A stretch of DNA of 64,000 nt from an uncultured virus (IMG/VR IMGVR_UViG_3300030606_000005) (taxonomy: Duplodnaviria; Heunggongvirae; Uroviricota; Caudoviricetes), in the IMG/VR virus record IMGVR_UViG_3300030606_000005. One strand, written 5' to 3'. Under the pieces are notes generated by a model, which saw nothing but the letters and a program-made list of their open reading frames with translations, did no database searches and was not told where the DNA came from. Of this stretch, positions 24,874 to 64,000 are shown piece by piece; the first letter of the stretch is position 1, and every line of letters starts with the position of its first letter. Both the position numbers and the translations under genes were made by a program.

Positions 24874-25416
24874 TCAACGCAGGTCGAGGACCATGGCGTC
24901 GTACCGGGGCGAGTCCTCGAACGGCTGCATCTGACCGACCTTCCGGTAACCCCAGCTCTCGTAGAGAGCACGCACTTTGGGGTGTTCGCTGTCCACGAGC
25001 AGTGATGCACGGGCTTCCTGCCGCTGGCCCATGAGTTCGTCGTGGATGCCTCGGGCGATGCCCTTTCCGCGCCATGGCTGGCGGACCATGATTTCGCACA
25101 GGCCGAACGTGCCCTGCTCGCCGTAGTCCCGGACGCCGGGGCCGACAGGGTCTAGGATGTCGCGCCACTCCCGGGCGCTGTCGAGCCGCCCGTACGCGTA
25201 GCCGACCGGCTGGCCGTCGATCTCGCCTGCGACACATGCCCAGCTGGAGCCAGAAGCGTGGCCCGAGAGCCGTTCCTCGAAGCGCTCCACGGAGAAGAAC
25301 GGGTCTTGTGCGGCCTCCCGCGCGTACACCTCGGCGTACACGTCCACGAGCATGGAGCGGATCTGAGGCAGGTGTTCGCGCCGGTAATAGCTGAGCGTGA
25401 GCACATCTACCGTCAT
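24874..25416 (-). CDS. GNAT family N-acetyltransferase
   Basis: VGYAYG, EIMVRQPWRGKGIA acetyl-CoA motif, LYESWGY. Confidence 0.9.
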   Translation of the reverse strand: MTVDVLTLSYYRREHLPQIRSMLVDVYAEVYAREAAQDPFFSVERFEERLSGHASGSSWACVAGEIDGQPVGYAYGRLDSAREWRDILDPVGPGVRDYGEQGTFGLCEIMVRQPWRGKGIARGIHDELMGQRQEARASLLVDSEHPKVRALYESWGYRKVGQMQPFEDSPRYDAMVLDLR

Positions 25417-26690
25417 GTTGCCGCCTCCTGGTAGTGGTCTGCGAAGGTCCTTGCCTCTCGCGGAGCGCAGTCCAGCACATCGTCGTGGAACTGCGCCAGG
25501 TGCGCACTCCAGCGAGCGCTGCGTACCTCGGGAAGCAGGCCGAGGGCCTCGTGCCCGGATTCGAGGGCCCCGTCCGCCTCACCAGCCGCGAGAAGGTTCC
25601 TGGCCAGGCTGACATGGGTGGCGAATGCATTCCGGCGGAACTCGTCCGTCGCTATGAGCGCAAGCGCATCACGGTCGGCTTGAGCCGCCCGCGCGTAGTC
25701 CCCCAGGTTGAAGAAGCACAAGGCGGCCTGTCCGGCCATCTCATCGGGGCCGCAGAACGCCAGCCACGCGGGGGCCTGGCCGGACGCACGGTCGAGTTCC
25801 TGTTCGGCGCGGTGGAGGGACTGCGCGCACCGCCCCCTTTCCCCGTCGGCCGAATGCCCGAGTGCGACCCGCGAGTGCAGCAGCGCCGATAGGCGAGGGT
25901 CGCGCCGGCCTCGGGTGGCGTCCAGTGCCGCGCGAGCGACGGCGACCGCCTCGGCGCCGTGGCCGAGGTCGACCGCCTGCCGGGACAGGCTTGCCCAGAT
26001 GCGGGCCTGGAGCATGGGGTCACGTGCGAGGAGTGCGTAGCGAAGTGCGGTGTCCCACCGGCTGCGCGCCTGGTCGTGTCGGCCGGAGTCGTAGGCCAGC
26101 CATCCGGCTTCCTCGCATATTTCACCGAGGGCTTGGTGCAGCTGTGTCTGCACGCGTCCGCCGTAGGTGCAGTGCCGCATGGCGTGCTCGACGTGTTCGA
26201 CGTACCGTCCGGCGATGTCGGCTAGCTGTGCGCTTCCGTGCTGACTGTCCAGCTGGACGAGGTGCGCCTCGGCCTCGCGGATACGGACGATGTCGCTCAG
26301 GCCTAGGCGCCCCGACTCGGGCAGTGGGGGCAGGGCGATGAGGCTGCCGAGGCCGACGATGAACTTGCGGCGGAGCACGGGCGGGTCCTGAGGTGGTGCG
26401 GGTACTGACGTTCGCACGGTAACCCGGGGAGTGCGGCTGGCGGGAGGGCAGAAGCCTAACTCGCTGGCAGGGCGGCCGAATACGCTTTCCAGCGGAAGAC
26501 GACTGCGGGTTCTCGGCCAGGCGACCTTGCCCTTCAGCCAGAAGTTGACGAGCTGCACCGAGCAGTTGCCGGGGGCTCCCGTGAGCTGCTCGGCGGCGTC
26601 GTTGACCGCTTCGGCGAGCCCTTCCCGGGTGAACCCGTACTCGGTCATGAGCTGCCGGAGCGTGAGGTTCGGCTGGAGTTGATCGACCAT
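25413..26690 (-). CDS. XRE-HTH plus helical-repeat transcriptional regulator (NsdA-like family)
   Basis: ATG 26690 with GAGGGG RBS; N-terminal HTH, LDSQHGS and AGWLAYDSG motifs; contains TTA codon at 26459-26457. Confidence 0.8.
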   Translation of the reverse strand: MVDQLQPNLTLRQLMTEYGFTREGLAEAVNDAAEQLTGAPGNCSVQLVNFWLKGKVAWPRTRSRLPLESVFGRPASELGFCPPASRTPRVTVRTSVPAPPQDPPVLRRKFIVGLGSLIALPPLPESGRLGLSDIVRIREAEAHLVQLDSQHGSAQLADIAGRYVEHVEHAMRHCTYGGRVQTQLHQALGEICEEAGWLAYDSGRHDQARSRWDTALRYALLARDPMLQARIWASLSRQAVDLGHGAEAVAVARAALDATRGRRDPRLSALLHSRVALGHSADGERGRCAQSLHRAEQELDRASGQAPAWLAFCGPDEMAGQAALCFFNLGDYARAAQADRDALALIATDEFRRNAFATHVSLARNLLAAGEADGALESGHEALGLLPEVRSARWSAHLAQFHDDVLDCAPREARTFADHYQEAAT

Positions 26691-28578: not shown

Positions 28579-28617
28579 TTCGTCGTTCCTGCGTCCCGCT
28601 GCCTGGTGTCCTTTAGA

Positions 28618-28647: not shown

Positions 28648-28688
28648 CGTTACACTCTGTGTCGAGCAGTAGGCACGGAGGGGTGAGC

Positions 28689-30290
28689 ATGGCCGTACTG
28701 ACCACAGCTGAGGCCGTCATGGACGAGGCCGTCACTCGGGCGGCCCGCGAGTATTTGCGGGTATCCAAGGGCAACGGCCGCACCGCGCGCAGCATCCGGG
28801 ACCAGCACCGGGACAACCTTGCCACCGAGGCGGACCATGGTCCCTGGACTTGGGGGGAGCCGTACAAGGACACCGGATCGGCGTCCAAGTTCGCGCGCAA
28901 GATCCGAGACGATTTCGAGCGCATGCTGGCCGACCTCAGGTCCGGCCAGTTCGGTGGCCCGGGTGATGTGCTCGTGCTGTGGGAGATTTCCCGGCTCGCC
29001 CGCGAGACCGGCCGCGGCGTGGAACTCGTGGACGCCTGCGAGAAGGGCAGGTACCTGATCCACGTCACTTCTCACGAGCGCACCTACAACCCGGCCAACT
29101 ACCAGGACCGCCACAGTCTGATCGGCGGCATCAACGACGCGGAGAAGGAAGCCCGACTGCTGTCCGTCCGCACTCTGCGCGGCCTGAACTCCGCGGCCCG
29201 TGAGGGACGCCCGCAGGGGCAGGTTCCGTTCGGTTACCGGAGGGATTACGAGGTGGTGGACGGTCGTCCGCGCCCCGTGGCGCAGTACCCGGACCCGGAG
29301 ACCGCCCCCCTGGTCAAGGAGTTGTACGAACGCGTCGTGGGCGTGAACGGCAAGCTGCCGGAGCCCATGTACGCGATTGCTAAGGACTGGGAGGAGCGCG
29401 GGGTTGTCGGCAAGAACGGGAAGACGTTCACGCCCCAGAACCTCCGCTCGATGCTCCTCCGTCCGTCGAACGCCGGGCTGCGCAAGCACAACGGGGTGCT
29501 GGTGCCGGAGCAGTGGGATGGCTGGACGCCGGTCATCTCCCGTGACCTGTTCGATCGTGTCCAGGTGATCCTGTCCGATCCGTCGCGCCGCAAGTACACC
29601 GGCGAGCACATCCGGCATGTGCTGAGCATGACGCTGAAGTGCGGCGTGTGCGGCAGGGGCATGGTGGTACAGACCCGTAGGAAGCCGGGCGCCAAGGACG
29701 CCGTCGGGTACCAGTGCGGGCCGAGAGGGCACGTGTGGGTACCGAAGGCCCAGACCGACCGCATCCTCATCGGCGATCTCGACCCCGTCGACCCGGACAC
29801 GGGTGAGCTGCTCCCGCCGAAGTTGGGGACGATTCTGGAGTACCTGACCGCGCCCGACCGGTACGCGGGCCTACGGCATCGGCCCGACACGAGTGCGGAG
29901 GAGACGACACTCAGAGCCGAGCTGGCCCGGCTTCACGGTGAGCTGAAGGAGTTGGAGGAGGCGCCGCAGCCGAAGACTGCGCGTGCCCGTATCCGGCGCA
30001 CCAGCGACATCGAGGAACTGGAGACGGACGTCGCCGTCCTGGAGGCGAAACTGGGCACGCTCACCACCCCGGCTCCGCTCGCCGAACTGCTGCCGGACGA
30101 GCCGATCACCGATGTCGTGCGGTGGTGGCGAAGGGCCGGCGTGGAGAAGCAGCGGGCCATCGCCGCGCTGCTTCTCACACCGTCCATGTTGGGTGAAGTG
30201 CGGATCATGCCGTCACCGGTGCCCCGGGGCCATGCCCCGGTGGCGGAGCGGATGGCCGTGTACCGGGAGACGCTACCCGCTGCTGAGTAG
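28689..30290 (+). CDS. int: Large serine recombinase (integrase)
   Basis: YLRVS catalytic Ser, D.GSAS, WEISRLAR, PFGY, CGVCG zinc ribbon, coiled coil; GGAGG before ATG 28689. Confidence 0.93.
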   Translation: MAVLTTAEAVMDEAVTRAAREYLRVSKGNGRTARSIRDQHRDNLATEADHGPWTWGEPYKDTGSASKFARKIRDDFERMLADLRSGQFGGPGDVLVLWEISRLARETGRGVELVDACEKGRYLIHVTSHERTYNPANYQDRHSLIGGINDAEKEARLLSVRTLRGLNSAAREGRPQGQVPFGYRRDYEVVDGRPRPVAQYPDPETAPLVKELYERVVGVNGKLPEPMYAIAKDWEERGVVGKNGKTFTPQNLRSMLLRPSNAGLRKHNGVLVPEQWDGWTPVISRDLFDRVQVILSDPSRRKYTGEHIRHVLSMTLKCGVCGRGMVVQTRRKPGAKDAVGYQCGPRGHVWVPKAQTDRILIGDLDPVDPDTGELLPPKLGTILEYLTAPDRYAGLRHRPDTSAEETTLRAELARLHGELKELEEAPQPKTARARIRRTSDIEELETDVAVLEAKLGTLTTPAPLAELLPDEPITDVVRWWRRAGVEKQRAIAALLLTPSMLGEVRIMPSPVPRGHAPVAERMAVYRETLPAAE

Positions 30291-31766: not shown

Positions 31767-31874
31767 CTCTGAATCCTTCCCCCTCGCGCCACTCGTACTT
31801 TCTCGAACTTTATTGAAGTGCAGCAGGTCACGCGAGGGCATGCACGAGCCCTTCACATTGAGAACGATTAAGTC

Positions 31875-31914
31875 CGACTAGCCACTTGTAGTTAGTCGTA
31901 CATGGTCGTAATCT
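31875..31914 (+). promoter_or_regulatory. Leaderless promoter for the Cro-like gene with overlapping inverted repeat
   Basis: TTGTAG (31886), 17 nt, TAATCT (31909), 7 nt, ATG; IR cgactagc...gttagtcg 31875-31898. Confidence 0.55.
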
Positions 31915-31921
31915 CGTCCGT

Positions 31922-32164
31922 ATGAACGAAGACCCGAAGAGCTTCCGCCGTCGGCGGGTCGAAGCCGGTCTGAGCCTCACGGACCTTGCGAAGCAGGTAG
32001 GGGTCAGTACGAGCCACCTCTCCGACGTCGAGAACGGACGGGCGGGCTTCTCCCCGAAGAACCTCAAGAAGATCGCCGACGCACTCGGCTGCACCATCCG
32101 TGACCTCCTGCTCCCCGACCCGGAGGACGAACCCGACACCACGGCCTCACGGAGCGCGGCCTGA
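31922..32164 (+). CDS. Cro-like XRE HTH protein
   Basis: GLSLTDLAKQVGVSTSHLSDVENG. Confidence 0.9.
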   Translation: MNEDPKSFRRRRVEAGLSLTDLAKQVGVSTSHLSDVENGRAGFSPKNLKKIADALGCTIRDLLLPDPEDEPDTTASRSAA

Positions 32165-51898: not shown

Positions 51899-51901
51899 GC
51901 C

Positions 51902-52057
51902 GTGATCTGCAAGCCATGCCGAGACGCCGCCGCTGGTGTGCCCGGCGCCCGCCACTGCGACGAGCCCGCCAACCCCGGCCGTGAGTCCTGGTCGTGCGCC
52001 TGCCAGCACCGGCCGCCCGTACGTCAGGCCGACGCCGACACCTCGAAGGAGTCCTGA
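51902..52057 (+). CDS. Small Cys-rich protein
   Basis: GGAGG RBS; ICKPC...CACQH. Confidence 0.5.
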   Translation: MICKPCRDAAAGVPGARHCDEPANPGRESWSCACQHRPPVRQADADTSKES

Positions 52058-52059
52058 CC

Positions 52060-52629
52060 GTGGCGAACACTCAGTGGAACGGCGAACCCTGTGCGGCGCG
52101 GCGCATCACCGCCATCGTCGCCGACAACGACGCCTTCCCCGGGTACTGGGCCCGTCACCTGGTCGGCACGCGCCGCGACGTCGTCGAAGTGACCTACGGC
52201 GGCAGCACCTTCTACCTCGACGACGAGGTGGGCGAAGGCTGGCACAAGGTCACTCACGGCGGATCACCGCGCTGGGCGCACAGCAACATCACCATCCAGC
52301 CGGACAGCATCCAGCCCCGTGGCGACCGCAAGGCCGACCCGGACATGCCCTGCCCGCACGAGAACTTCGACGCCTTCGTGGAAGTCAACCGGGTCACCGC
52401 GAGCGACAACGACCCGACGGCGGTCGGTTACCACGCCGACGCCAAGGTCAGCTGCTACGACTGCGGCGAGCCGTTCCGCTGGACCGGCGTGAAGGCCGGC
52501 ATGTCCCAGGGCCGTCCGATGTGCAGCGTCGACGAGACCGAGCTGCGCGCGCCCCTGCGCCCGGCGAGCGCGGACCCCGACTTCGGACTCGGACTGCCCG
52601 GCTTCTCCGTCCGGTACAGGGAGGGCTGA
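52060..52629 (+). CDS. Hypothetical protein (two domains)
   Basis: AAGGAG RBS; CPHENF, CYDCGEPF. Confidence 0.6.
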   Translation: MANTQWNGEPCAARRITAIVADNDAFPGYWARHLVGTRRDVVEVTYGGSTFYLDDEVGEGWHKVTHGGSPRWAHSNITIQPDSIQPRGDRKADPDMPCPHENFDAFVEVNRVTASDNDPTAVGYHADAKVSCYDCGEPFRWTGVKAGMSQGRPMCSVDETELRAPLRPASADPDFGLGLPGFSVRYREG

Positions 52630-53810
52630 TGGACCGCGTCAACCCGGTGGACGACCGCACGTTCACCACGCCCCTCATCAAGGGACTCCAGCGGCGGATC
52701 GACCTGCTCGCCGAGACGATCCCCGGCGACGACGCCTACCGGATCGCCGCAGCCTGGGTGTACACGACACTGCTGGTCGCGTGGTGCGAGGACCACGGCC
52801 TCATCGAGACCCGGCTGCGAGCCGGCGCACAGGACCGGCGCAAGGCGCACCTCGATGCGGGCGGGAGGATGCTCGGCTGGCTGGGCTGGTCGGCCGCCGC
52901 ACTCACCGTGCACCCCTCCACCGCGTGCCTGCTGGACCCCCGCTACAACCCGATCACGAAGGGCGCCCCCACCGAGCAGGCCGCCCGCGCGCTCGTCGAC
53001 TGGTGGACCGACGAAGCCCCCGACCTCGCCTACCCCACGGGCAAGGGGCCCGCGTCCATCACCGGCTGGCTGGCCGGAGACATGCTCCAACTCGTCACCG
53101 ACGAACGCCGCCTCGCCAACGCCCTGTGCCAGACCCCCTGGTGGATCGCCGACTTCCTCCTCGACCGCACCCTCGCCCCCGCCATCGGCGCCTTCCCCGG
53201 CCAGCTGCTGCGGGTCATCGACCCCGCCTGCGGCACCGGACACCTCCTCGTCTGGGCACTCATAGGCCTCTACCACTGGTACCGCAGCGACCGCCCCGGG
53301 CACCCCGCGATGGATCCCCGCCGGGCCATCAGGCGGGCATTGGCGGGACTGCACGGCGTGGAACTCGACCCGCTCACCGCCGCCGTCGCACGCCTGCGCC
53401 TCACCGTCACCGCCGGCGCCCTCCTCGCAGCAGACGGCGCACTCCCCACCCCGCTGCGCCTGCACCAGATCCCCGCCGGCCTGCGGCCCCGGGTCGCCAT
53501 CGGCAACGCGCTCCTCGCCGGACTCGACGACCCGTGCCCGCCCGGCACGATCCTCGACGACACCGCCGACTACCCCGGAATCCTCACCCGCGGCACCTAC
53601 CACGCCGTCGTCGCCAACCCCCCGTACATCACGGTCAAGGACCCGGCCGTGAGCAAGGCGATCAAGGCCGCCTACTTCGCGGCCCACGGCAAGTACAGCC
53701 TGTCGGTGCCCTTCGCCCAGCTCACCTTCGACCTCGCTATCCGTGGCGCCCCGGACGGAGAACCCCTCGCACCGCCAGAACAGCTCGGCCTGTTCGCCAC
53801 CCCGGCATGA
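52629..53810 (+). CDS. N6-adenine methyltransferase, truncated PglX (BREX-2)-like
   Basis: IDPACGTGHLL then ANPPYITVKD (gamma order); 393 aa. Confidence 0.85.
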   Translation: MDRVNPVDDRTFTTPLIKGLQRRIDLLAETIPGDDAYRIAAAWVYTTLLVAWCEDHGLIETRLRAGAQDRRKAHLDAGGRMLGWLGWSAAALTVHPSTACLLDPRYNPITKGAPTEQAARALVDWWTDEAPDLAYPTGKGPASITGWLAGDMLQLVTDERRLANALCQTPWWIADFLLDRTLAPAIGAFPGQLLRVIDPACGTGHLLVWALIGLYHWYRSDRPGHPAMDPRRAIRRALAGLHGVELDPLTAAVARLRLTVTAGALLAADGALPTPLRLHQIPAGLRPRVAIGNALLAGLDDPCPPGTILDDTADYPGILTRGTYHAVVANPPYITVKDPAVSKAIKAAYFAAHGKYSLSVPFAQLTFDLAIRGAPDGEPLAPPEQLGLFATPA

Positions 53811-53816
53811 CCGCCT

Positions 53817-53891
53817 GCCCGGGTGGCGGAACAGGCAGACGCAGCCGCCTTAAAAGCGGATCAGTTGCGGGTTCGAATCCCGTCCCGGGCA
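53817..53891 (+). tRNA. tRNA-Leu(UAA)-like, short variable loop
   Basis: GCCCGGG/CCCGGGC acceptor, Leu-type D-loop, CT-TAA-AA loop (TAA 53851-53853), GGTTCGAATCC, discriminator A. Confidence 0.82.
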
Positions 53892-53925
53892 CGTCAACCA
53901 GCCACGCACCAAGGAGTTCCAGCAC

Positions 53926-54189
53926 ATGCGCCGTATCAAGGCCGCGTCCGTCGAGCAGCTGCTTACCGGCAACGGTCACAAGCTCAGCGAGTTCTGGGAC
54001 GGCGACTGGGACCCCGGGTTCCGCGTCGCGCAGGGCGGCACCCGCGTCGTGTTCGTTTTCTACGACGGTCACGACGAGGCCGACCAGCTCGACGCCGTTA
54101 CGGCCGAGCTGCGCGGTGCTGGGTACCACGTGGTCGCCACGCATCAGGAAGGCGCCGGGCACCGGCGCCTGGAGGTGACCCGCCCATGA
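53926..54189 (+). CDS. Hypothetical protein
   Basis: AAGGAG RBS. Confidence 0.6.
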   Translation: MRRIKAASVEQLLTGNGHKLSEFWDGDWDPGFRVAQGGTRVVFVFYDGHDEADQLDAVTAELRGAGYHVVATHQEGAGHRRLEVTRP

Positions 54190-54407
54190 TCGCCGTTCGC
54201 CGCATCCTCAACCGGGCCATCGCGCACGCGGTGCTGCTCGGCCGCCACCACCGCACGGCCGTCGTCGGCGGCTACCACTGGCGCTACTGCTCCCACCGTT
54301 CCCATTGGCTCCGGCTGCCGTGCTGGCGCTGGTTCATCCACGACGGCTACTGCCACCACCACAACGAGACCTGCTGGCTCAACTGCCCGGAGCGCCCTCT
54401 TGACTAA
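54186..54407 (+). CDS. His/Cys/Trp-rich small protein
   Basis: ATGA overlap. Confidence 0.5.
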   Translation: MIAVRRILNRAIAHAVLLGRHHRTAVVGGYHWRYCSHRSHWLRLPCWRWFIHDGYCHHHNETCWLNCPERPLD

Positions 54408-54738
54408 GCCCACCCCGATCGACGAGCTACGTACGGCTGCCGCCCGCCTGCGCGACGACCGGAACTGCGACGGCCACCGCGTCGACTGCAACAGCCGCGA
54501 ACTGCTGGAGATGATCCGCGTCCTGCTGCGCGCCCGCGAACCGCTCGCCGAGTTCCTGGAGACCGAGGCCGGCGTCGCCGAGGACATTCAGCGGCAGAGC
54601 CCGGACCTCACCGCCGATCAGGTCGCCGCGTTCGTTCACGGCGCGCTCGGCACCGCCCGTGCCATCAACGCCGCCGCCGAGCCCGGCCCTGTGCGCGGCG
54701 GCGCCATCCTCGACCACCTCACCGGAGGAACGACCTGA
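54400..54738 (+). CDS. Hypothetical protein
   Basis: TPIDELRTAAARLR. Confidence 0.6.
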   Translation: MTKPTPIDELRTAAARLRDDRNCDGHRVDCNSRELLEMIRVLLRAREPLAEFLETEAGVAEDIQRQSPDLTADQVAAFVHGALGTARAINAAAEPGPVRGGAILDHLTGGTT

Positions 54739-55118
54739 TGCAGCCCGCCTTCACCCGCGGCTTCCGCCTGCACCACAACGGCCAGGTCCTCGACGGTGCC
54801 GAGTTTCCCTCCGGCCGCGCATTCGTGATCGACGACCCCGAGCACGGGCTCGCGTCCGCTGCGACGTCGGTGCAGCACCTCCTGGAGGGCTACCACGGCG
54901 CCCGCGTCGAATGGCCCGGCGACCAGCTCGTACCCACGGCGCTGCTGCTCGACCTGGTGAACATCGTCGCCAACGCCCGGCGGGACCGGCCCTTCCCCGA
55001 GGCCACGGCGCGCGCAGTCCTCGGCCAGCTCACGAAGTACCTGGGCTACGACGTCGCCGAACGCGCCGCCGAGCAGGAAGCCACCCGCGCCCTCGCACGA
55101 GGGGACACGCACCTGTGA
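54738..55118 (+). CDS. Hypothetical protein
   Basis: GGAGG RBS; DGAEFPSG. Confidence 0.6.
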   Translation: MQPAFTRGFRLHHNGQVLDGAEFPSGRAFVIDDPEHGLASAATSVQHLLEGYHGARVEWPGDQLVPTALLLDLVNIVANARRDRPFPEATARAVLGQLTKYLGYDVAERAAEQEATRALARGDTHL

Positions 55119-55534
55119 GGCCGGAGCTGCGCCGTCCTGGCGCCCGCTGGCGGCTGCTCGTGCACGAGTGGGCCGGACGCGTCTCCGGCCAGCGCGACGG
55201 CATGTACGGCGCCGCGCACAGCATCGCCAGCGACACCGCGTTCGGCGGCAAGGTCCCCGACGGCGAGCACTACAAGAACCACCTGTTCGAGAACACCGAG
55301 TTCGACGAACTGACGGTCGGCAGGTGGCTACACATCGAGCAGATGGACCACCGCGTGTGGTGGATGAACATCGCCGGGATCACCGTGCACGCCACCGTCG
55401 ACCGCGACGGCCGCCCGCTGCGCGTGTGGGTGTCCGGCCCCTACGACTACGACGAACCCGTGCCTGACTGCCGCTACGAGCTGACCTGGACCAACCCCGA
55501 GCAATACCCGAAGGAGCAAGCCGATGGACGCTGA
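55115..55534 (+). CDS. Hypothetical protein
   Basis: FDELTVGRWLHIEQMD. Confidence 0.6.
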   Translation: MRPELRRPGARWRLLVHEWAGRVSGQRDGMYGAAHSIASDTAFGGKVPDGEHYKNHLFENTEFDELTVGRWLHIEQMDHRVWWMNIAGITVHATVDRDGRPLRVWVSGPYDYDEPVPDCRYELTWTNPEQYPKEQADGR

Positions 55535-55778
55535 ACACCGCGTCGTCACGATCGACCGCCACGAGTGGGTACTGAAGAGCCCCGCCCACCACACCGAGAT
55601 CGGCAAGGCCGTCGACGCCGCCGAACTGGAACGCGCCACGCAGGCCTCCAAGGGCGTGCGTACCGGCGACGTCCACGTCCACGGCGACGACACCGAGTTG
55701 GTCATCTCATTCGAGGCCGAGCGGAAGAACTCCAAGCGGACGATCCGCGACCAGATCATCGAGGCCGACGATGCCTGA
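55524..55778 (+). CDS. Hypothetical protein
   Basis: AAGGAG RBS. Confidence 0.6.
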   Translation: MDAEHRVVTIDRHEWVLKSPAHHTEIGKAVDAAELERATQASKGVRTGDVHVHGDDTELVISFEAERKNSKRTIRDQIIEADDA

Positions 55779-56145
55779 GAAGCGCATCAGGACCGACACC
55801 ATCCGAGGACAATGCCCCGCGTGCGGGTGGGCGTCGCTCTTCGTCGGCGAGGGCGGCTACCTCACGTGCTCGCGGCTGGAATGCCCGCAGCCCGACACCG
55901 CGCACAGAATCCTCGCCGACCGCGAGACCGAGCACATCGTGCAGTTCGACGACGACGGCTTCACCGTCCGCCACCCGCTGCGCGAGCGCCTCGACGACGC
56001 GCTGATGCGATGCGACCTGCACCGGCACTGCGCCTCCCTGCCCGGCCCTCCGGATGCGCCCGGTCGGTACCGGACTGTCGAGCAAGACGGCGGCTGGCTG
56101 TTCCAACGGCTCGACGTGCAGGAGGCCGCCAGTGCAGACGATTGA
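55771..56145 (+). CDS. Zinc-binding hypothetical protein (DUF6085-like)
   Basis: GQCPACG..LFVGEGGYLTCS..CPQP. Confidence 0.6.
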   Translation: MPEKRIRTDTIRGQCPACGWASLFVGEGGYLTCSRLECPQPDTAHRILADRETEHIVQFDDDGFTVRHPLRERLDDALMRCDLHRHCASLPGPPDAPGRYRTVEQDGGWLFQRLDVQEAASADD

Positions 56146-56698
56146 CGACCTCGTCCGGGACCTGCTCGATTGTTGGACCGGCGACGAGCAGCATCCCGGC
56201 GACGGCGGCCCCGGCCTCATCACCAGACTCGACAGCCTCGCCCTGCGTACCCGGCAGCCGCCCGCCGGCGGGCACGCCCCGCCCGGCAGCCGCCCGCCCG
56301 CCTCGCTGGACGCCGTGCACTGGTCGACGGCGATCAAGGCTCAGGCGCGCATCCTCGACATGGAGCTGCGCGGCTCCAGCCACATGCAGCAGTGGGACCG
56401 CGCCCTCCGCGCGATCCCGCCAGGCGCCGAGGCCGCGGGCCGCGTCGCTGAGGTCGCATCCACCGTCGGCCGCTGGCACTCCAGCTGCCGCACCGCGCTC
56501 GGACTCCAGGAGCCGGCCCGGCACTACCGGCACGTGCTCTGTCTGGTGTGCGGCCAGCGCACCGTGTACGGCCGCGCCGACGGCGACCGCCCGCGCGCCT
56601 GGTGCATCAACGACGTCTGCACCGACGAGGACACCGGGCAGCCCGCCCGGTACGAGGGCGACCGCCTGTACCTGCTCACGGAGAACCGGGCCTCATGA
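56132..56698 (+). CDS. Hypothetical protein with C-terminal zinc ribbon
   Basis: PGSRPPASLDAV, CLVCG, CINDVC. Confidence 0.6.
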   Translation: MQTIDDLVRDLLDCWTGDEQHPGDGGPGLITRLDSLALRTRQPPAGGHAPPGSRPPASLDAVHWSTAIKAQARILDMELRGSSHMQQWDRALRAIPPGAEAAGRVAEVASTVGRWHSSCRTALGLQEPARHYRHVLCLVCGQRTVYGRADGDRPRAWCINDVCTDEDTGQPARYEGDRLYLLTENRAS

Positions 56699-57438
56699 CC
56701 GCAGACACGCCCGTCGCCCACGGCTACACCGTGCGCGACCTCGAACACTTCGCCCGGCTCGTCCTGCGCATGGACCGCTGGTACATCGCTGGAGACATTG
56801 ATGAGCGGTACGACGCCGTGTGGTTCGGCATCACCGAGTGCCTGCTCACCGCCGATGAGCCGCCGACCCGGCGGGAGCTGCTGAACGCGGGCACCGCGGC
56901 CTCCGACGCCCGGGTCAGGGACGACATGCGCACGCACGGCCGGTGCACGCAGAACTTCGGCCAGCCGATGCCCCGCTTCCACGCCTACTGGAATCCGGCC
57001 AACCCTCCGTCGCCGGAACACCGTGTCGTCGAGCGTCTCGCCGTACAGCAGATCTGGCCGCTGCTCCAGCCCCGCCAGCGGCAGGCTCTCGCAGCGCTCG
57101 CCACCACCGGCGACTACGACAAGGCCGCCGCCGCGCTCGGCATCACCAAGGGGACCTTCGGCGTGCTCATCTCCACTGGCCGCCGCCGCTTCTACGCCTG
57201 GTGGCACGAGCACGAAATGCCCTCGCGTCAGTGGCGCACAGACCGGCGGGTTCGTTCCAGGGACGGCCGCGACCACCTCGGACGACAGCGGCTCACCGCA
57301 GCGCAGGTCGACGCCTACCGGCAGCGCCGCGACGCCGGCGAACCCGTGAAGGCTCTGGCCGCTGAAGCAGGAATAGCGACCGGCACCATGTACCAGCTAC
57401 TCAAGGGCGCGTCCAAGCCTGCGCAGGTGATGACGTGA
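56695..57438 (+). CDS. Sigma-factor-like/HTH DNA-binding protein
   Basis: LQPRQRQAL..YDKAAAALGI and a second C-terminal HTH. Confidence 0.6.
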   Translation: MTADTPVAHGYTVRDLEHFARLVLRMDRWYIAGDIDERYDAVWFGITECLLTADEPPTRRELLNAGTAASDARVRDDMRTHGRCTQNFGQPMPRFHAYWNPANPPSPEHRVVERLAVQQIWPLLQPRQRQALAALATTGDYDKAAAALGITKGTFGVLISTGRRRFYAWWHEHEMPSRQWRTDRRVRSRDGRDHLGRQRLTAAQVDAYRQRRDAGEPVKALAAEAGIATGTMYQLLKGASKPAQVMT

Positions 57439-58679
57439 GCAGCAGCACTCTGGAGGCACTCGCCGCCGAAGCCCCGGGCCCCGACGGGCACCGGCAGATC
57501 ATGCGCGTGGCCGTCAACGCCGTCGCCGCCGCGCGTGGCATGCCTGCGCCGTGGCCCATGGACATTCCCGGTGATACGGCCGAGCGCGTTGTGAAGCTGC
57601 TGGCCGACCTCGCAGACCTCAGCCAGTGGGGTGCTGCGGAACTCGGCGAGCTGCGCGAGCAACTGCTCGCGACCGAGGACCGCAGCGCGTCGGGCGTCTG
57701 GTACACGCCAGCCGAGGTCGCCCGGCCACTGACCCACGCCGCCCTGGGCGAGATCACCGACCTGCACCTGGACGACGACCCCGTCGACGTCCTCAACGTC
57801 TCGGTCCTGGACCCGGCGTGCGGCTGCGGAGTGTTCCTCATCGCCGCCGCACGCATCCTCGCCTCCGCCTACGTCGGCCTGCTGTACGGCACGCAGGATC
57901 CCGCCCCGCTCACTGTTCAGGCCGTCATGGCCGACGTCATGCGCTGCTGCGTGTACGGCATCGACACCGACCCGGTCGCCGTCGACCTCGCCAAGGCCAT
58001 GTGCTGGCTGGAGACCAGCGGCTTCGCCCCCATCGACTGGCTCGACGACAACATCGTCGTCGGCAACGCCCTCGCAGGGGACATCCCTCCGGCGCTGACC
58101 GGCCGGCTCAGCACGGCCAGCCCGCTGGCGATCGTGGGCAACCCGCCCTACAAAGACAAAGCCAAGGGCGCCGCCCCATGGATCGAAGCCCGCCGTCCCC
58201 ACCGGCTGAAGGACCGTTCCCCCGACGAACTCTGGCGCCCGTCCTTGGACGAGTTCCGCACCCCCGGCCAGGGCCGGTTCGAGTACACGCTGTCCAACCT
58301 GTACGTGTACTTCTGGCGCTGGGCCCTGTGGCGCGTCTTCGAAACCCGCATGAACGCCGGGGTGATCGCGTTCCTCACCCCGAGCGCCTGGCTGAAGAGC
58401 GAGGCATTCAATGGGATGCGCGGCGCCATGCGCGGGGCCGCCGACCGGATCCTCATCGTCGACCTGACACCCGAGGGCAAAGCGCCGCCCACCAAGACGC
58501 GCATCTTCCCGGGCGTCACCCTTCCCCTCTGTGCGGCAGTGCTCGCCCGGCGCGGAGGCCCACGACCGGACGACATGGCCCCCGCACACATCGCCACCGT
58601 TTCGGGCAGCCGCGAGGACAAATTCCGGCAGCTCGAACGGCTCCTCGGCGCTTCAAGCCCGACATGGGGCGCCTCGTGA
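57435..58679 (+). CDS. N6-adenine methyltransferase, Type ISP-like catalytic core
   Basis: GVWYTP, VLDPACGCGVFL, GNPPY, NLYVYFWRWA. Confidence 0.85.
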   Translation: MSSSTLEALAAEAPGPDGHRQIMRVAVNAVAAARGMPAPWPMDIPGDTAERVVKLLADLADLSQWGAAELGELREQLLATEDRSASGVWYTPAEVARPLTHAALGEITDLHLDDDPVDVLNVSVLDPACGCGVFLIAAARILASAYVGLLYGTQDPAPLTVQAVMADVMRCCVYGIDTDPVAVDLAKAMCWLETSGFAPIDWLDDNIVVGNALAGDIPPALTGRLSTASPLAIVGNPPYKDKAKGAAPWIEARRPHRLKDRSPDELWRPSLDEFRTPGQGRFEYTLSNLYVYFWRWALWRVFETRMNAGVIAFLTPSAWLKSEAFNGMRGAMRGAADRILIVDLTPEGKAPPTKTRIFPGVTLPLCAAVLARRGGPRPDDMAPAHIATVSGSREDKFRQLERLLGASSPTWGAS

Positions 58680-58684
58680 TGGGG

Positions 58685-59140
58685 TCAGGGCGCGTCGATC
58701 TCGGCTTGAGTACGTGGGTCACCGTTGAGTCGGATCGCGATCGTGCGCGCCGTCTCGTGATTGACGTCCGCCCAGCGGCCGATCTCGCGGAAGGAATGGC
58801 CGGCCCGGCGCGCACCGGCGATGTCCTGTTCGAGTTCCCGCCTTCGCTGGGTGATGACCCTCGCTCGGCGGCGAAGCCGGGGCGTCCAGCGCTCGGCTCC
58901 AGGGGCGACGGCTCCCATCTTGTTGTACCGGGGGTGCTCACGCTGGATCGCGCGGAGTTCCGCCTTGAGCGCGGCCTGCCGCGTGCGGCGCCATGTGATC
59001 TCCTTCGTGGCAACCTCAGGCCACCACGCCTTGTCGGCCTCATGCTGTGCGAACCGGACCGAGGGTCGATCGGTGACGCCGACATACAGAAGGTGCCCGT
59101 CGGCGTCGTACAGCCGGTACAGCGCCGTCCGGCCGCTCAT
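58685..59140 (-). CDS. GIY-YIG nuclease-domain protein with C-terminal HTH
   Basis: LYRLYD....LLYVGVT, RFAQH, E..AI..EHPRYN; GHSFREIGRW. Confidence 0.85.
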   Translation of the reverse strand: MSGRTALYRLYDADGHLLYVGVTDRPSVRFAQHEADKAWWPEVATKEITWRRTRQAALKAELRAIQREHPRYNKMGAVAPGAERWTPRLRRRARVITQRRRELEQDIAGARRAGHSFREIGRWADVNHETARTIAIRLNGDPRTQAEIDAP

Positions 59141-59370
59141 TTGTCGGCCTCTTCCCGCTCCCGCGTTTCTCGCGCGCGCCGTGCTTCCAGCACCACCTTT
59201 CGGGCCGGCCGTGAGGGCAGCTCGGCACCGGGCTCACGCAGGTACCAGGCGATCAGCTCGCGGATCACGGCGGCGCGCTCAGTGCCAACGCTCTTGGCCG
59301 CGGCGTCGAAGTCGTACCACTCGTCACCGATGCGGATCTGGCGAGCTGGAGTCTTCGGCGCATTCGGCAT
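59137..59370 (-). CDS. Ribbon-helix-helix DNA-binding protein
   Basis: TPARQIRIGDEWYDFDAAAK...RAAVIRELIAWY. Confidence 0.75.
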   Translation of the reverse strand: MPNAPKTPARQIRIGDEWYDFDAAAKSVGTERAAVIRELIAWYLREPGAELPSRPARKVVLEARRARETREREEADK

Positions 59371-59386
59371 GAGCGCACCGTACCGG

Positions 59387-59492
59387 GGTGTAGCTACGGG
59401 CTTCAATGTCCTCACCTCCGGGTGTAGCTACAGAAATCATGGTCCACCGCCTTGCGGTGTAGCTACACCTCACGCTATGGTGTAGCTACACC
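59387..59492. promoter_or_regulatory. Four copies of palindromic operator GGTGTAGCTACACC over a rightward promoter
   Basis: Copies at 59387, 59421, 59456, 59479 (last two perfect); TTGCGG-18-TATGGT overlaps them. Confidence 0.85.
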
Positions 59493-59510
59493 CAAAGTCA
59501 AGGAGGGGTC

Positions 59511-59870
59511 ATGGACGCACAGCTCACGCGCAGGATCACCGTCGCCGAGTACCTCGTACGGCGCGACCTCCCGGCCGACTGGCGCTTCGGCTCTTGGCTG
59601 GGTCGTGTCGCCGCTGAGATCTACCGCGACACCTACCGGCGCGAGCCGTCCAAGGCGTTCCGGTTCATCAACGGCCGCTTCCGCAGGGTGATGGCGTACC
59701 GGCCGTCCGAGGCGCACGTGCTGATCGCCGCGTGGGAGCGGTACGGCCGGTTCGCCGAGGACCGGCCCGCCCCGGCCGTCCGTACCCGCCACGTCCCGGC
59801 GCCCCGCTTGACCAGCATCGACGCGATGCGGTGGACCCCGAGCCGTGGCCCTGTCCGTAGCCACCCGTAA
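59511..59870 (+). CDS. Hypothetical Arg-rich protein
   Basis: AAGGAGG RBS. Confidence 0.7.
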   Translation: MDAQLTRRITVAEYLVRRDLPADWRFGSWLGRVAAEIYRDTYRREPSKAFRFINGRFRRVMAYRPSEAHVLIAAWERYGRFAEDRPAPAVRTRHVPAPRLTSIDAMRWTPSRGPVRSHP

Positions 59871-59895
59871 CCGTCCGCCCCGGAAAGGGGGAGTC

Positions 59896-60141
59896 ATGTC
59901 CGACACCCTGATTCGCGCTCTCGACCTGATCGAGCCCGGTGACCTGGTCGTCTACCACGGCTCCATCCGCAGCATGCACGGCCTGTGGCTGGCGATCCCG
60001 TGCCCGTGCCGGATCTGCCAGGCCGTGGACGCGCTCGGTCTGGTCGACGTCCGGTTCGCGTTGGCCGACCCGTGGGGCGAGCGGCCCGGCCCCCACCACG
60101 TCCGCCGCCAGTCCATCACCCGCTCTATCGCCTGCGGCTGA
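59896..60141 (+). CDS. Hypothetical protein with CxCxxC
   Basis: GGGGGAG RBS. Confidence 0.6.
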   Translation: MSDTLIRALDLIEPGDLVVYHGSIRSMHGLWLAIPCPCRICQAVDALGLVDVRFALADPWGERPGPHHVRRQSITRSIACG

Positions 60142-60149
60142 GCACCCCA

Positions 60150-60225
60150 GGGCCTGTAGCTCAGGAGGCAGAGCGAGGGATTTAAACCCCAGTGCGCGCC
60201 GGTTCGACCCCGGCCGGGCCCACCA
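60150..60225 (+). tRNA. tRNA-like gene with degenerate anticodon arm (TAA or TTA), encoded CCA
   Basis: 76 nt; intact acceptor, D and T arms; anticodon arm AGGGATTTAAACCCCAG poorly paired. Confidence 0.7.
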
Positions 60226-60260
60226 GATCAGTCACCGATCAACCCCGGAGGGGGAACACC

Positions 60261-61466
60261 GTGAGCATCACCGACGTCAACACCGCGTTCGCGGCCGAGA
60301 AGACGGCACAGATCGAAGCCGTCCGCAACGTTGAGCGCGCGTTCCAGAGCCGTATCGACCGGGGAGAGATCCGCCTCGTCGGCGGCGGCCAGTACGAGGT
60401 GCTGACCGGCTGGGACCGGGGCGAGCGCTTCACCGTCTCTCGCAACACCCAAGGGCAGATCGAGCGGATCATCGCCAACCACGGGCTCGACGAGAGCGCG
60501 GACGGCACGATCGCCCTCTACGCGTCCTCGCCCGCGTGGCACGGCCTCGGTCAGATCATCCCCGGCGGCACCACGGACATCGACGAGGTCCTCGTACGGT
60601 CCGGCCTCGACTTCGAGGTGACCACGGTGCCCGCCCTGTACGAGTGGGATGGCGAACTGCGCGAGCACACCGACCAGTTCCACACCGTGCGTGAGGACAC
60701 GGGCGCGGCGCTCGGAGCGGTCGGCGCCCGCTACACCCCGATTCAGAACCGTCAGGGCTTCGAGTTCCTCCAGGAACTGGTGGGCCGCTACGACGTGGTG
60801 TGGGAGTCGGCCGGTGTCCTGCGCGGCGGGAAGCGCGTGTTCATCTCGATCCGCCTGCCCGAGACCGTCCGCGTGGACGCCGACGGCATCAACGACCTGA
60901 TCGTCCCGTACGTGGCCGTCATGAACGACCACAGCGGGCAGGGCCAGTTCCAGTGCGTCGTCACCCCCTGGCGACCCGTCTGCGCCAACACCGAACGCTT
61001 CGCCGTCCGGGACGCCCACACCCGGTGGGCCGTGCGGCACACGGCAGGCGCCACCGACGAGATCAAGGAAGCCCGGCGCACGCTCGGCCTGTCCGTGAAG
61101 TACTTCGAGGAGTTCGCCGCCGAGGAGACCGCGCTCGCCCGTACGGACATCGCCGTCGCCGAGTTCCACGACCTGGTCGCCGACCTGTGGCCCCTCGACG
61201 AGGACGCAACCGACCGCGCGAAGACCAACCACGCTCACCGGCTCGGCGCCCTCGACGCGACGTTCCGCACCGAGACGGAGCGCGTCGGCCGTACGGCGTA
61301 CGCCGCCGAGCGCGCCATCACCGGCTACCTCGATCACGTCGCACCCCGGCGGCCCGGCCGAACGATGACGGAGGAAGTGGCGCGCGCCACCGCGCTGCTG
61401 GAGGGCGCGGACGACGAGATGAAGACCAAGGCCCACAAGCGGCTGCGGCTCCTGCGCAAGGCCTGA
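60261..61466 (+). CDS. DUF932 family protein
   Basis: PAWHGLG, YTPIQN, ESAGVLRGGKRVF, TPWRPVCANT, RHT. Confidence 0.88.
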   Translation: MSITDVNTAFAAEKTAQIEAVRNVERAFQSRIDRGEIRLVGGGQYEVLTGWDRGERFTVSRNTQGQIERIIANHGLDESADGTIALYASSPAWHGLGQIIPGGTTDIDEVLVRSGLDFEVTTVPALYEWDGELREHTDQFHTVREDTGAALGAVGARYTPIQNRQGFEFLQELVGRYDVVWESAGVLRGGKRVFISIRLPETVRVDADGINDLIVPYVAVMNDHSGQGQFQCVVTPWRPVCANTERFAVRDAHTRWAVRHTAGATDEIKEARRTLGLSVKYFEEFAAEETALARTDIAVAEFHDLVADLWPLDEDATDRAKTNHAHRLGALDATFRTETERVGRTAYAAERAITGYLDHVAPRRPGRTMTEEVARATALLEGADDEMKTKAHKRLRLLRKA

Positions 61467-61561
61467 ACCCCCAGACCGGCGGCCGGGCCGACTCCCCCAG
61501 CTCGGCCGCCCCCAGGGCCGCCGCCCCGCCCAACCCCCGTCACGCGGGGCGGCGGCTCCAA

Positions 61562-61637
61562 GCGCCCGTGGCCCAACCGGTAGAGGCAGCGCCTTATAAG
61601 CGTCGAGCTGCGAGTTCGAATCTCGTCGGGCGTACCA
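61562..61637 (+). tRNA. tRNA with TAT anticodon (Ile, reads AUA), encoded CCA
   Basis: GCGCCCG/CGGGCGT acceptor, CT-TAT-AA loop (61595-61597), 4-bp anticodon stem, GTTCGAATC, ACCA. Confidence 0.8.
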
Positions 61638-61672
61638 CCGCAGATCACCAACGACTCAGGAAGACACGCGAC

Positions 61673-62245
61673 ATGAGCACCGACCCGCCTGGCATCTCCG
61701 CCGGGCCCATCGAGACCGAGCCGCTCGACTACCCGACACCCGGCGACTTCCCGACCACGAGCCGCAAGGCCGAGATCCTGGGGGACGTGTTCCGCGCGGC
61801 CGGCGTACACCTGGGTGCGTACGACGAGCGGATCGCGACCTGGCTCGCCCAGACCTCCGACTGGTCGACGTTCGCCGTCATCGTCTCGTGGGTGGCGCGC
61901 GCCGCCACGGCCCGTGAGCCGACCCGGACGGTCGCCCTGCCGGGCCGGTTCGACGCGACCCCGGCCGAGGTGGACCGGCACCTGCGGCGGATCCTCGCCG
62001 AGGACGTGTACCTGCGCTACCAGCAAGCCATCGGCGGCCATGCGGTCATGGAGGCCTCGAAGGACCTCCGCATGGAAGTCGTCCTGCCGAACGCCCCGGA
62101 CGCCAAGCAGTGGCGCGAGGCGGCCAACTACATCGACCCCCGCCTGCACGGCGGCCCGTACCCGTCGCAGCTCTTGTGCTCGCAGCACGACGGCTTCGGC
62201 CCCTGCCCCGGCGCACCCCGCTGCACCCCGAAGGAGAACGACTGA
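61673..62245 (+). CDS. Hypothetical protein
   Basis: GVHLGAYDERIATWLA. Confidence 0.6.
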   Translation: MSTDPPGISAGPIETEPLDYPTPGDFPTTSRKAEILGDVFRAAGVHLGAYDERIATWLAQTSDWSTFAVIVSWVARAATAREPTRTVALPGRFDATPAEVDRHLRRILAEDVYLRYQQAIGGHAVMEASKDLRMEVVLPNAPDAKQWREAANYIDPRLHGGPYPSQLLCSQHDGFGPCPGAPRCTPKEND

Positions 62246-62523
62246 TGGCCACCGGCCCCGAGCACTACCGCAAGGCCGAGCGCCTCGCCGAGCAAGCCGA
62301 CACGTGGATGAACGCCGACACCGGCTGGAAGGCCCACCTGTCCACCGAGGAACGCATCGCCCACCGCACGGCCGACCTGCTGGCTGGCCTGCTGCACGCG
62401 GTCCTCGCCAACTCCGCCGCGACCGCGCTGAACGACCACAGCGCCGACGAAGGCGGCATGCCGCTCGCCGACTACGACGCGTGGGTCCAGACGGCCTCTC
62501 AGTGGAAGCGGGGCGGGAAGTGA
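62245..62523 (+). CDS. Hypothetical protein
   Basis: MATGPEHYRKAERL; AAGGAG RBS. Confidence 0.6.
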   Translation: MATGPEHYRKAERLAEQADTWMNADTGWKAHLSTEERIAHRTADLLAGLLHAVLANSAATALNDHSADEGGMPLADYDAWVQTASQWKRGGK

Positions 62524-62909
62524 CCACGCTCGACTTGACCCCGAACGACTGGCAGCGCGCCAACCTGGCGCCGCTCGCCGTCGCCTGCCCCGACTGCGGC
62601 TCGCCTGCCGGCCAGCTGTGCACGAGCCACGGCGGAACCCGCGCCCGCAACTCACAGGTCCACCGCGCCCGCACGGCCGCCTGGGAGACGGCTCGGCTCG
62701 CCGCGAACCCGGCCGCCAAGCTCATCGCCGACGCGGTGACCGAGCGGGGCATCCGGCACGGCCAGCACGCCGTCAACCTGCTGCGCGAGCACGGCTACAC
62801 GGCCGAGGCCGACAACGTCCAGCGCGCCGTGTCCCGCCGCCACGGGCACATGTCCGCCAAGCAGGCCGCGCAGTTCCTCATCGACATCGAGGGCGGTGAG
62901 AACCAGTGA
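62520..62909 (+). CDS. Zinc-finger protein
   Basis: VACPDCGSPAGQLC...HRAR. Confidence 0.6.
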   Translation: MTTLDLTPNDWQRANLAPLAVACPDCGSPAGQLCTSHGGTRARNSQVHRARTAAWETARLAANPAAKLIADAVTERGIRHGQHAVNLLREHGYTAEADNVQRAVSRRHGHMSAKQAAQFLIDIEGGENQ

Positions 62910-63667
62910 GCGCCCGCGACACCCTTATCGGCATCCTCCAGCAGTGGACCGACCGGCACGACGCCGCTCCACAGACGCCCGAAGCCCTGGTCGCCGCCTC
63001 TGATGCCGAGCTGCTGCGGGGCTGGGCGGCGAAGATCCGCGAGGTCGGAACCGCGAAGGGCTGGTCGACGTGGGCCGCCGCCTACATCGACCCCGACGTC
63101 GAGTTCGTCGACACGGCCATGCCGTCGACCGAGACGATCGTCGCCGAGCTGCGCCGACTTGACCGCGTCGCCATCCTCCGCCAGGCCGCCGAGGCGATCG
63201 AGCGTGAGCAGGCCCGTGAGGAGCGAGCGGAAAGCGAGCGGTTCGGATACCTCGACCACGAGACGGAGCTTCAGGGGGTCGCTGTCCGGGCCAAGGCGAC
63301 GTTCCTGCGCCGCCTGGCCGACGACGTCGAGCGGGGGAAGGACACCAGCGTCGGCAGCCAGCCGACCGCAGGCGGCGCCACTCCCGACTTCTTCCTGCCC
63401 GGTCATACGTACAGGCGGCGCCGGTGGCGGTTCCAGTGCCTCGCTGTCGGCCCGGACCCCTTCACCGGGGAGACCCGGGCCGCCGGCTACCTGTACCGGC
63501 CGGGCGAGTCCGCGACCGTCACAGGGATGGACCCGGAGACCTGGGCGCGCGGCGGCTGGTGCGACATCACCGAGTTGTCGCCCGCCACCGACGCACCGGC
63601 GGCGCACCCGGATGCGACGGCGCACGCCTCGTCGTACGACACCGACACCGAAGGAACGAGCCAGTGA
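62906..63667 (+). CDS. Mosaic hypothetical protein
   Basis: GTGA overlap; DFFLPGHTY. Confidence 0.6.
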   Translation: MSARDTLIGILQQWTDRHDAAPQTPEALVAASDAELLRGWAAKIREVGTAKGWSTWAAAYIDPDVEFVDTAMPSTETIVAELRRLDRVAILRQAAEAIEREQAREERAESERFGYLDHETELQGVAVRAKATFLRRLADDVERGKDTSVGSQPTAGGATPDFFLPGHTYRRRRWRFQCLAVGPDPFTGETRAAGYLYRPGESATVTGMDPETWARGGWCDITELSPATDAPAAHPDATAHASSYDTDTEGTSQ

Positions 63668-63669
63668 AC

Positions 63670-64000
63670 ATGCCCGCGCCGCTGACCATGACTGCACGCC
63701 GCGCCATGGTCGCGGAACTGCGCCGCCAGGAGCCAGGCATCAGCGCCCGCAAAATCGCAGATCGGCTCGGGGCTGGCAAGGACACGATCCTCCGGGACAT
63801 CGCCGAGATCGAGACGGAGCAGCGCCAGCGCGCCGCCGAGGCCGCAGCCTCCGCAGCGTCTGCTGAGCCGCCCGCGCCACCGGACGCGCCGGAGGGCGAC
63901 ACGCTCGTGATCCGCCTCGACGAGCCGATGCGCCAGGCCCTCGCCACCCTCCGCGCTGCCGTCGGCTCTCCAGACACCCCGACCGCCAACCGGCGGGCGG
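63670..64000 (+). CDS. HTH protein, truncated by window end
   Basis: GISARKIADRLGAGKDTILRD. Confidence 0.65.
   Translation, partial: MPAPLTMTARRAMVAELRRQEPGISARKIADRLGAGKDTILRDIAEIETEQRQRAAEAAASAASAEPPAPPDAPEGDTLVIRLDEPMRQALATLRAAVGSPDTPTANRRA

What the first reader, a model, noticed from the sequence alone, without database searches (positions are those of the whole stretch)
53817..61637. Three dispersed tRNA(-like) genes, all with A/T-only anticodons, in a high-GC phage
Seen: cloverleafs at 53817-53891 (TAA), 60150-60225 (TAA or TTA) and 61562-61637 (TAT). Each stands alone between early genes and each has an imperfect anticodon stem. Known: UUA and AUA are among the rarest codons in Streptomyces; UUA depends on the developmentally regulated bldA tRNA and AUA on TilS-modified tRNA-Ile(CAU). 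Inference: these tRNAs do not serve the phage's bulk codon usage, so they may form a rare-codon decoding or host-reprogramming system, or act as decoys or replacements against anticodon nucleases.
Basis: partly seen in the sequence, partly recalled or inferred. Interest (0 to 1): 0.85.

Follow-up and report, generated by a model that had tools for sequence, protein, structure and literature searches.

The report
Phage tRNAs for Streptomyces' rarest codons
A Streptomyces temperate phage carries tRNAs for two codons it almost never uses itself (UUA and AUA); related mobile elements keep these anticodons on different tRNA bodies, some of which look built to deliver the wrong amino acid, so they may change how the host reads its own genes.

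Summary
The three tRNA genes are real (Rfam 55/45/45 bits, cut-off 29) and lie in a Streptomyces temperate phage. Relatives found without using the anticodon keep it: UAU in 10 of 14 DUF932-anchored loci, and in 5 of 5 closest proviruses. UAU stems covary, so this is not decay. The anticodon is fixed but the body varies. t1 is a short-armed Leu(UAA), a bldA stand-in of a known type. t3 puts UAU on a Leu-type body, in a slot where relatives use an Ile2-like body. t2's family carries the alanine mark G3·U70 with UAA/UAU in 7 of 9 copies; t2 itself lacks it and has a broken anticodon arm. The phage has 1 TTA and 11 ATA in about 18,900 codons, no more than tRNA-less relatives. Sampled host defence genes use these codons 6–8 times more often. 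Best reading (0.45): identity-tolerant readers that bypass the host's bldA and TilS gates. Bolder reading (0.2): deliberate mistranslation of AT-rich host genes. Expression and charging are untested.

The parts
53817..53891 (+). t1: short-variable-loop tRNA-Leu(UAA); Leu-type D arm, A15·U48, 6-nt variable loop, no encoded CCA
   Evidence: family of 18 distinct high-GC sequences, 18 of 18 with A15·U48; host Leu(CAA) is short-armed too
60150..60225 (+). t2: class I tRNA of the family that usually joins an alanine acceptor to UAA; this copy has G3-C70 and a broken anticodon arm (UAA or UUA register)
   Evidence: same slot before DUF932 holds UAA tRNAs in L003 and L004
61562..61637 (+). t3: UAU anticodon on a Leu-type body (A15·U48, C13·A22 D stem, 4-bp anticodon stem); relatives have an Ile2-like UAU tRNA in this slot
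   Evidence: one further Leu-type UAU tRNA in a 65% GC virus
61478..61558 (+). two GC-rich hairpins directly before t3, kept before the UAU tRNA of related proviruses (processing or termination signal, inferred)
   Evidence: fold z -2.8 for the region including t3; similar leaders in L002, L003, L004, L039, L078
60261..61466 (+). DUF932 gene flanked by t2 and t3; used as anticodon-blind anchor
   Evidence: PF06067 E 8e-62
52629..53810 (+). DNA methyltransferase-like gene directly before t1; the pair recurs in provirus L279
   Evidence: Eco57I/MmeI-type Pfam hits; 67% identical protein beside a t1-type tRNA
25413..26690 (-). only called gene of the window with a TTA codon (weak TPR hit, beside a GNAT gene)
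28659..30290 (+). serine integrase; argues against tRNA-dependent lysogeny

Best explanation
These are mobile-element tRNAs selected to read UUA and AUA, the two codons Streptomyces decodes through single gated tRNAs (bldA; TilS-modified Ile2). Transcribed with the early genes and cut out as ordinary tRNAs (inferred), they are charged by host synthetases and fill the ribosome at UUA/AUA without bldA or TilS. The anticodon is what is held; the amino acid is loosely held: Leu for t1, Leu or Ile for t3, Ile for the common UAU form, Ala for most of t2's family. All are aliphatic, and LeuRS and AlaRS do not need the anticodon (established knowledge), so any such body gets charged. As the phage barely uses these codons, the effect falls mainly on host or cargo mRNAs and on the roughly 8% of phage genes with an ATA: it removes stalls when the host tRNAs are scarce, unmodified or cut. 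t2 here is probably a decaying spare made redundant by t1. Shown: genes, anticodon conservation, covariation, body swaps, codon counts. Inferred: expression, charging, target, benefit.
For: Anticodon-blind anchors: UAU in 10 of 14 DUF932 loci, UAA in 2; UAU in 5 of 5 proviruses with RecT >=71% identical; the t2-type 5' half occurs in 3 of 301 Streptomyces genomes, all UAA or UAU. Structure is selected: 98.5% of cells paired, 15 of 20 pairs with two-sided change, 0/500 shuffles, slid controls 37-51%. Cognate-looking bodies are the majority: 26 Ile2-like UAU and 18 Leu UAA against 9 of the Ala family. S. coelicolor LeuRS charges short-armed tRNA-Leu, and a Leu(CAA) switched to UAA replaces bldA (PMC6614811). 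A marker of the eukaryote-type IleRS, which may accept U34 (PMC3575796), rings in 3 of 4 Streptomyces genomes. Orthologous loci L299 and L300 carry the same Ala body with UAA and UAU.
Against: No benefit is shown. A complete provirus with an Ala-UAA tRNA has 0 TTA in about 19,900 called codons, so the UAA tRNAs cannot be for its own genes. Proviruses with and without these tRNAs use TTA and ATA alike (5 and 58 of 120,316 vs 7 and 42 of 111,295; p 0.57, 0.23). Hosts keep tilS (4 of 4). G3·U70 is a derived trait absent from 76 of 76 ordinary tRNAs with that 5' half; its retention is more than mere tolerance predicts. Unmodified UAU can misread AUG (PMC3575796). More distant relatives carry Gly(UCC) or nothing.
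Confidence: 0.45

Rival explanations
1. Codon-targeted sabotage: mischarged tRNAs (Ala at UUA or AUA, Leu at AUA, possibly Ile at AUG) spoil newly made proteins from AT-rich host genes such as defence systems and TTA-gated regulators, while sparing phage genes.
For: G3·U70 with A73 in 7 of 9 family members; that acceptor marks true tRNA-Ala in 19 of 21 viral hits and matches host Ala(CGC). 49 defence-type ORFs use TTA 0.61 and ATA 2.82 per 1000 codons against 0.07 and 0.43 in four prophages (8x, 6.5x; p 6e-6, 1e-19); 34 of 49 contain ATA. Five Ala-UAA regions have 0 TTA in 33,060 codons. Neighbours are methyltransferases, DUF932, SSB. Allo-tRNAs with UAU and UAA are a precedent (PMC5389517).
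Against: Most copies look cognate. Only 8 of 49 defence ORFs have a TTA and most have 0-2 ATA; Leu/Ile to Ala or Ile to Leu is mild. All AT-rich codons are enriched there (TTT 6.6x, AAT 4.8x). TTA avoidance is general in these proviruses. Proteins made before infection are untouched. t2 itself lacks G3·U70.
Confidence: 0.2
2. Replacement or decoy against a tRNA-cutting or tRNA-modifying host toxin aimed at Ile2, bldA tRNA or U-rich loops; the open 27·43 pair confers resistance and rare anticodons keep a decoy harmless.
For: 27·43 open in 32 of 52 members vs 0 of 44 host tRNAs; 8 of 96 called window genes contain ATA and would stall if Ile2 were lost; general hypothesis in PMC10264068 (abstract).
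Against: Cutting the UUA reader would hardly touch a phage with 0-2 TTA codons. A pure decoy should lose G3·U70. No such nuclease was identified here.
Confidence: 0.2
3. Passengers or decaying genes: tRNAs with rare anticodons persist because they do little harm.
For: t2 has a broken anticodon arm; L003 has A3·C70, L239 a 6-nt loop, three UAU copies an extra base in the arm; patchy presence; most allo-tRNA(UAU) were inactive (PMC5389517).
Against: Compensatory changes in all 7 acceptor pairs; slot, leader hairpins and anticodon kept while the body is swapped.
Confidence: 0.1
4. tRNA-dependent lysogeny: the phage breaks a host tRNA gene on integration and supplies the same isotype.
For: Known for Ile2 and Leu sites in actinophages (PMC10865867); three t1-type copies lie 0.4-4 kb from bldA (L195, L232, L236).
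Against: This phage has a serine integrase; no match above 11 nt to host tRNAs within 27,000-32,000; bldA is intact in those three loci.
Confidence: 0.04

Closest known systems
Type I tRNA-Leu(CAA) of Streptomyces coelicolor and its UAA-switched form (PMC6614811; passages and section 14 read)
   Same: Short variable loop, Leu-type D arm, LeuRS substrate; reads UUA in place of bldA when given UAA.
   Different: t1 is a natural phage gene; t3 joins such a body to an Ile anticodon.
Allo-tRNAs of Acidobacteria (PMC5389517; abstract and passages read)
   Same: Ser or Ala identity with foreign anticodons; UAU commonest, UAA and ochre also seen; many with weakened stems.
   Different: Allo-tRNAs have 8/4 or 9/3 folds; these are plain 7/5 tRNAs in Streptomyces phages and other mobile DNA.
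tRNA-ProX dual-identity tRNAs of Streptomyces (PMC11415595 passages; PMC10404621 term search only)
   Same: Natural tRNAs whose acceptor identity and anticodon disagree, same genus.
   Different: Pro identity with AGC, AGU or AUU anticodons; here Ala or Leu identity with UAA or UAU, using host synthetases.
tRNA-Ile(UAU) of Mycoplasma mobile and others (PMC3575796; passages and Discussion read)
   Same: Reads AUA without lysidine.
   Different: There it replaces tilS; here it is mobile, hosts keep tilS, and the body is not always Ile.
Nuclease-evading phage tRNAs (PMC10264068; abstract read)
   Same: Phage tRNAs with altered anticodon arms.
   Different: Those back up codons the phage needs; these read codons it avoids.

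Membership tests
tRNA (RF00005) | score above gathering cut-off, cloverleaf | tested here: met
   55.0, 45.4, 44.6 bits vs 29; t2 anticodon arm ambiguous
Streptomyces type I tRNA-Leu | variable loop of at least 5 nt, U8·A14, Leu-type D arm | tested here: met
   t1 6 nt, t3 5 nt; criteria from PMC6614811
Streptomyces type I tRNA-Leu | leucylation by LeuRS | not testable with these tools
   needs an assay; determinants in this genus are few, so t3's identity is uncertain
AlaRS substrate | G3·U70 (window t2) | tested here: not met
   t2 has G3-C70
AlaRS substrate | G3·U70 with A73 (t2's homologues) | tested here: met
   7 of 9 distinct members; element named sufficient in PMC11415595
allo-tRNA | 8/4 or 9/3 acceptor/T branch | tested here: not met
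   all three are 7/5
tRNA-ProX | Pro identity with A34 anticodon | tested here: not met
   anticodons UAA/UAU; no Pro acceptor in the window
tilS-independent tRNA-Ile(UAU) system | host lacks tilS | tested here: not met
   TIGR02432 over cut-off in 4 of 4 Streptomyces genomes, three carrying such tRNAs; the window's own host genome is not held
tilS-independent tRNA-Ile(UAU) system | IleRS accepts U34 | tested here: inconclusive
   PF19302, which I recall as a eukaryote-type IleRS domain, in 3 of 4 genomes
tRNA-dependent lysogeny | tyrosine integrase and attP core inside a host tRNA gene | tested here: not met
   serine integrase; no core above 11 nt
nuclease-resistant phage tRNAs | resistance to a host anticodon nuclease | not testable with these tools
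   only the open 27·43 pair is suggestive

The most novel reading that the evidence does not exclude
Streptomyces phages and other mobile elements carry plain 7/5 missense tRNAs (Ala at UUA or AUA, Leu at AUA, perhaps an ochre reader) aimed at the codons that best separate AT-rich host defence and developmental genes from their own: a genetic-code weapon against host immunity and bldA-gated development.
Probability: 0.2. Interest if true: 0.9.

Novelty: new variant of a known kind. Interest (0 to 1): 0.66.

Why it matters
Why phages carry tRNAs is an old open question, and the usual answer is that they back up codons the phage needs. Here the tRNAs read codons the phage avoids, one of which gates Streptomyces development and antibiotic production. 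Natural body swaps under a fixed anticodon give a ready test of whether decoding or the amino acid matters. If the Ala forms are charged, they are natural mobile missense tRNAs and tools to probe or bypass bldA control.

Tried and rejected
No whole genome is held for the window, so its own host tRNAs were not seen; other Streptomyces genomes stood in. No close relative among 50,697 GenBank phage records. The single genome-contig scan gave one Acidimicrobiia Leu(UAA). 0 of 81 phylum-wide genomes had the DUF932 protein. No RNA holder was listed; this is no evidence on expression. No sigma-70-like promoter in 51,000-64,000. Whole-sequence identity to host tRNAs (62-68%) does not assign identity. 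Codon compensation for phage genes rejected. TTA avoidance as proof of a poison rejected: tRNA-less proviruses avoid it too; the contrast with UAU-only loci (24 TTA in 58,470) is confounded by cargo genes. Relaxed ARAGORN calls without a T-loop consensus were dropped (whose output was partly cut). Ala-type UAA tRNAs are rare among viruses: 2 high-GC and 4 odd low-GC of 36 distinct tRNAs from 114 hits of a capped scan. No fold or complex job was run.
Full report
Observation. The window is a Streptomyces temperate phage in virion gene order: terminase, portal, capsid, tape measure, serine integrase, RecET, WhiB, three methyltransferase-like genes and DUF932 (58 and 15 chosen ORFs scanned). DUF932's closest named relatives are Streptomyces proteins. 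ARAGORN and Rfam agree on three tRNA genes and no others. t1 reads UAA and t3 UAU. t2 can be drawn as UAA, UUA or an 8-nt loop.

Is the anticodon set kept? I used anchors that ignore the anticodon. Of 14 loci found through DUF932 (3 proviruses; 10 of 401 genomes; 1 plasmid), 10 carry a UAU tRNA and 2 also a short UAA tRNA; 3 genome loci have neither (one has an armless tRNA-like gene) and the plasmid locus has only an initiator-type tRNA 7.5 kb off. Of 17 RecT-anchored viral records I scanned 12. All 5 at 71% identity or more have UAU. Of the 7 more distant, two have Gly(UCC), one a Y-RNA-like repeat, three none, one a 36-tRNA array that I did not parse. The 5' half of t2's family occurs in 3 of 301 Streptomyces genomes, each with UAA or UAU. 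Pattern searches that did use the loop found 14 UAU tRNAs among 17 hits in 401 genomes and, among 37 of 42 places fetched, short UAA tRNAs in 11 genomes. The 401 genomes are of one genus identified as Streptomyces by SsgA copies and a bldA-type tRNA.

Three bodies. Distinct sequences from loci of at least 64% GC with at most five tRNAs fall into three groups (loop invariance there is partly built in by my patterns). (I) 26 UAU tRNAs with an Ile2-like D and T arm (compare the host CAU tRNA), G15·C48, A73 and freely covarying acceptor stems. With no acceptor signal, IleRS is the likely charger (inference). (L) 18 short-armed UAA tRNAs including t1, all A15·U48. The host's own Leu(CAA) is short-armed and such tRNAs are leucylated (PMC6614811). 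(A) 9 tRNAs including t2, 7 with G3·U70 and A73. That acceptor belongs to true tRNA-Ala in 19 of 21 viral hits. So U70 is a derived trait tied to UAA/UAU. t2 has the C70 form and L003 has A3·C70. t3 belongs to none of the three: it has a Leu-type D arm and A15·U48 but sits in the group I slot, behind the same two hairpins. L299 and L300 are orthologous loci with the Ala body and UAA or UAU. Neighbours elsewhere include DUF932, DUF7178, DUF3846 and SSB without phage structural genes nearby, which I read as plasmid- or ICE-like DNA; that DUF932 marks plasmid leading regions is my recollection and was not found in the listed papers.

Whose codons? With a home-made gene caller the window has 1 TTA and 11 ATA in 18,921 codons; provirus G003, which has the Ala-UAA form, has 0 TTA. 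Seven elements with these tRNAs and six without do not differ. Forty-nine defence-type ORFs (OLD, SIR2, Shedu, PglZ; some cut by locus ends; 13 short TOPRIM ORFs and one duplicate set aside) use TTA 8 times and ATA 6.5 times more than four prophages, and 13 and 4 times more than a 400-kb host sample. But every AT-rich codon is raised there, and only 8 of 49 hold a TTA.

Mechanism. Shown: real genes, fixed anticodons, selected structure, swapped bodies, no own need for UUA. Inferred: they are processed, charged by host enzymes and read UUA/AUA without bldA or TilS (hosts keep tilS). Because cognate-looking bodies dominate and all predicted residues are aliphatic, I favour identity-tolerant bypass of these two gates (0.45). 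Retention of G3·U70 and the codon bias of defence genes keep deliberate mistranslation alive (0.2), as does nuclease replacement or decoy given the open 27·43 pair (0.2). Passenger status (0.1) fits t2 alone. tRNA-dependent lysogeny is unlikely. My odds on charging: t1 Leu 0.85; t3 Leu 0.5, Ile 0.35; G3·U70 members Ala 0.75; t2 weak or inactive 0.6.

Prior work. It works like allo-tRNAs and tRNA-ProX but fails their defining features. Nine literature searches (titles and abstract starts seen) listed no report of Ala-acceptor UAA/UAU tRNAs in Streptomyces mobile elements; subscription papers and all supplements were not seen. PMC10732093 (passages) states that such phages usually lack UUA and describes UUA-triggered bypassing in the Hau3 terminase, which a UAA tRNA could disturb in rival phages (speculation). 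Four earlier AI notes of this scan describe the t1 type alone; they led me to PMC6614811. None shown covers the Ala family or the body swap.

Verdict. Real and conserved; t1 alone is ordinary; the fixed-anticodon, variable-identity set is a new variant of known dual-identity tRNAs. Interest 0.66.

Noticed in passing
L544:1400-1720; L013:1250-1680 (-); L058:13560-13900: Tandem irregular tRNA-like repeats in related proviruses, two of them directly before the same ORF; from recall they resemble Y RNAs before a Ro60/TROVE gene. The motif was not found in the window.
   Followed up: partly
L053:3524-3593 (-); L062:854-924 (-): tRNA-like genes with intact acceptor, D and T arms but a shrunken anticodon arm, near DUF932 or a UAU tRNA.
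   Followed up: no
L195, L232, L236: t1-type Leu(UAA) genes 0.4-4 kb from an intact host bldA, one with a tyrosine integrase between them.
   Followed up: partly
L609, L651, L687, L702: Low-GC viral tRNA-like genes with G3·U70, a UAA loop and an elongated irregular anticodon arm.
   Followed up: no
L542, L543: More distant proviruses carry a solitary Gly(UCC) tRNA instead.
   Followed up: partly
window 24874-27750: GNAT, TPR-like and DUF6415 cassette between lysis region and integrase; holds the window's only TTA codon.
   Followed up: partly
window 48100-49575: Family 2 glycosyltransferase among early genes; has ATA codons here and in G002 and G003.
   Followed up: no
window 59395-59495: Short repeated motif with inverted copies between divergent genes at 59415 and 59511, operator-like (by eye).
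   Followed up: no
L055:14639-18363: A UAU tRNA lies about 1 kb from an OLD nuclease plus UvrD pair (Gabija-like).
   Followed up: no
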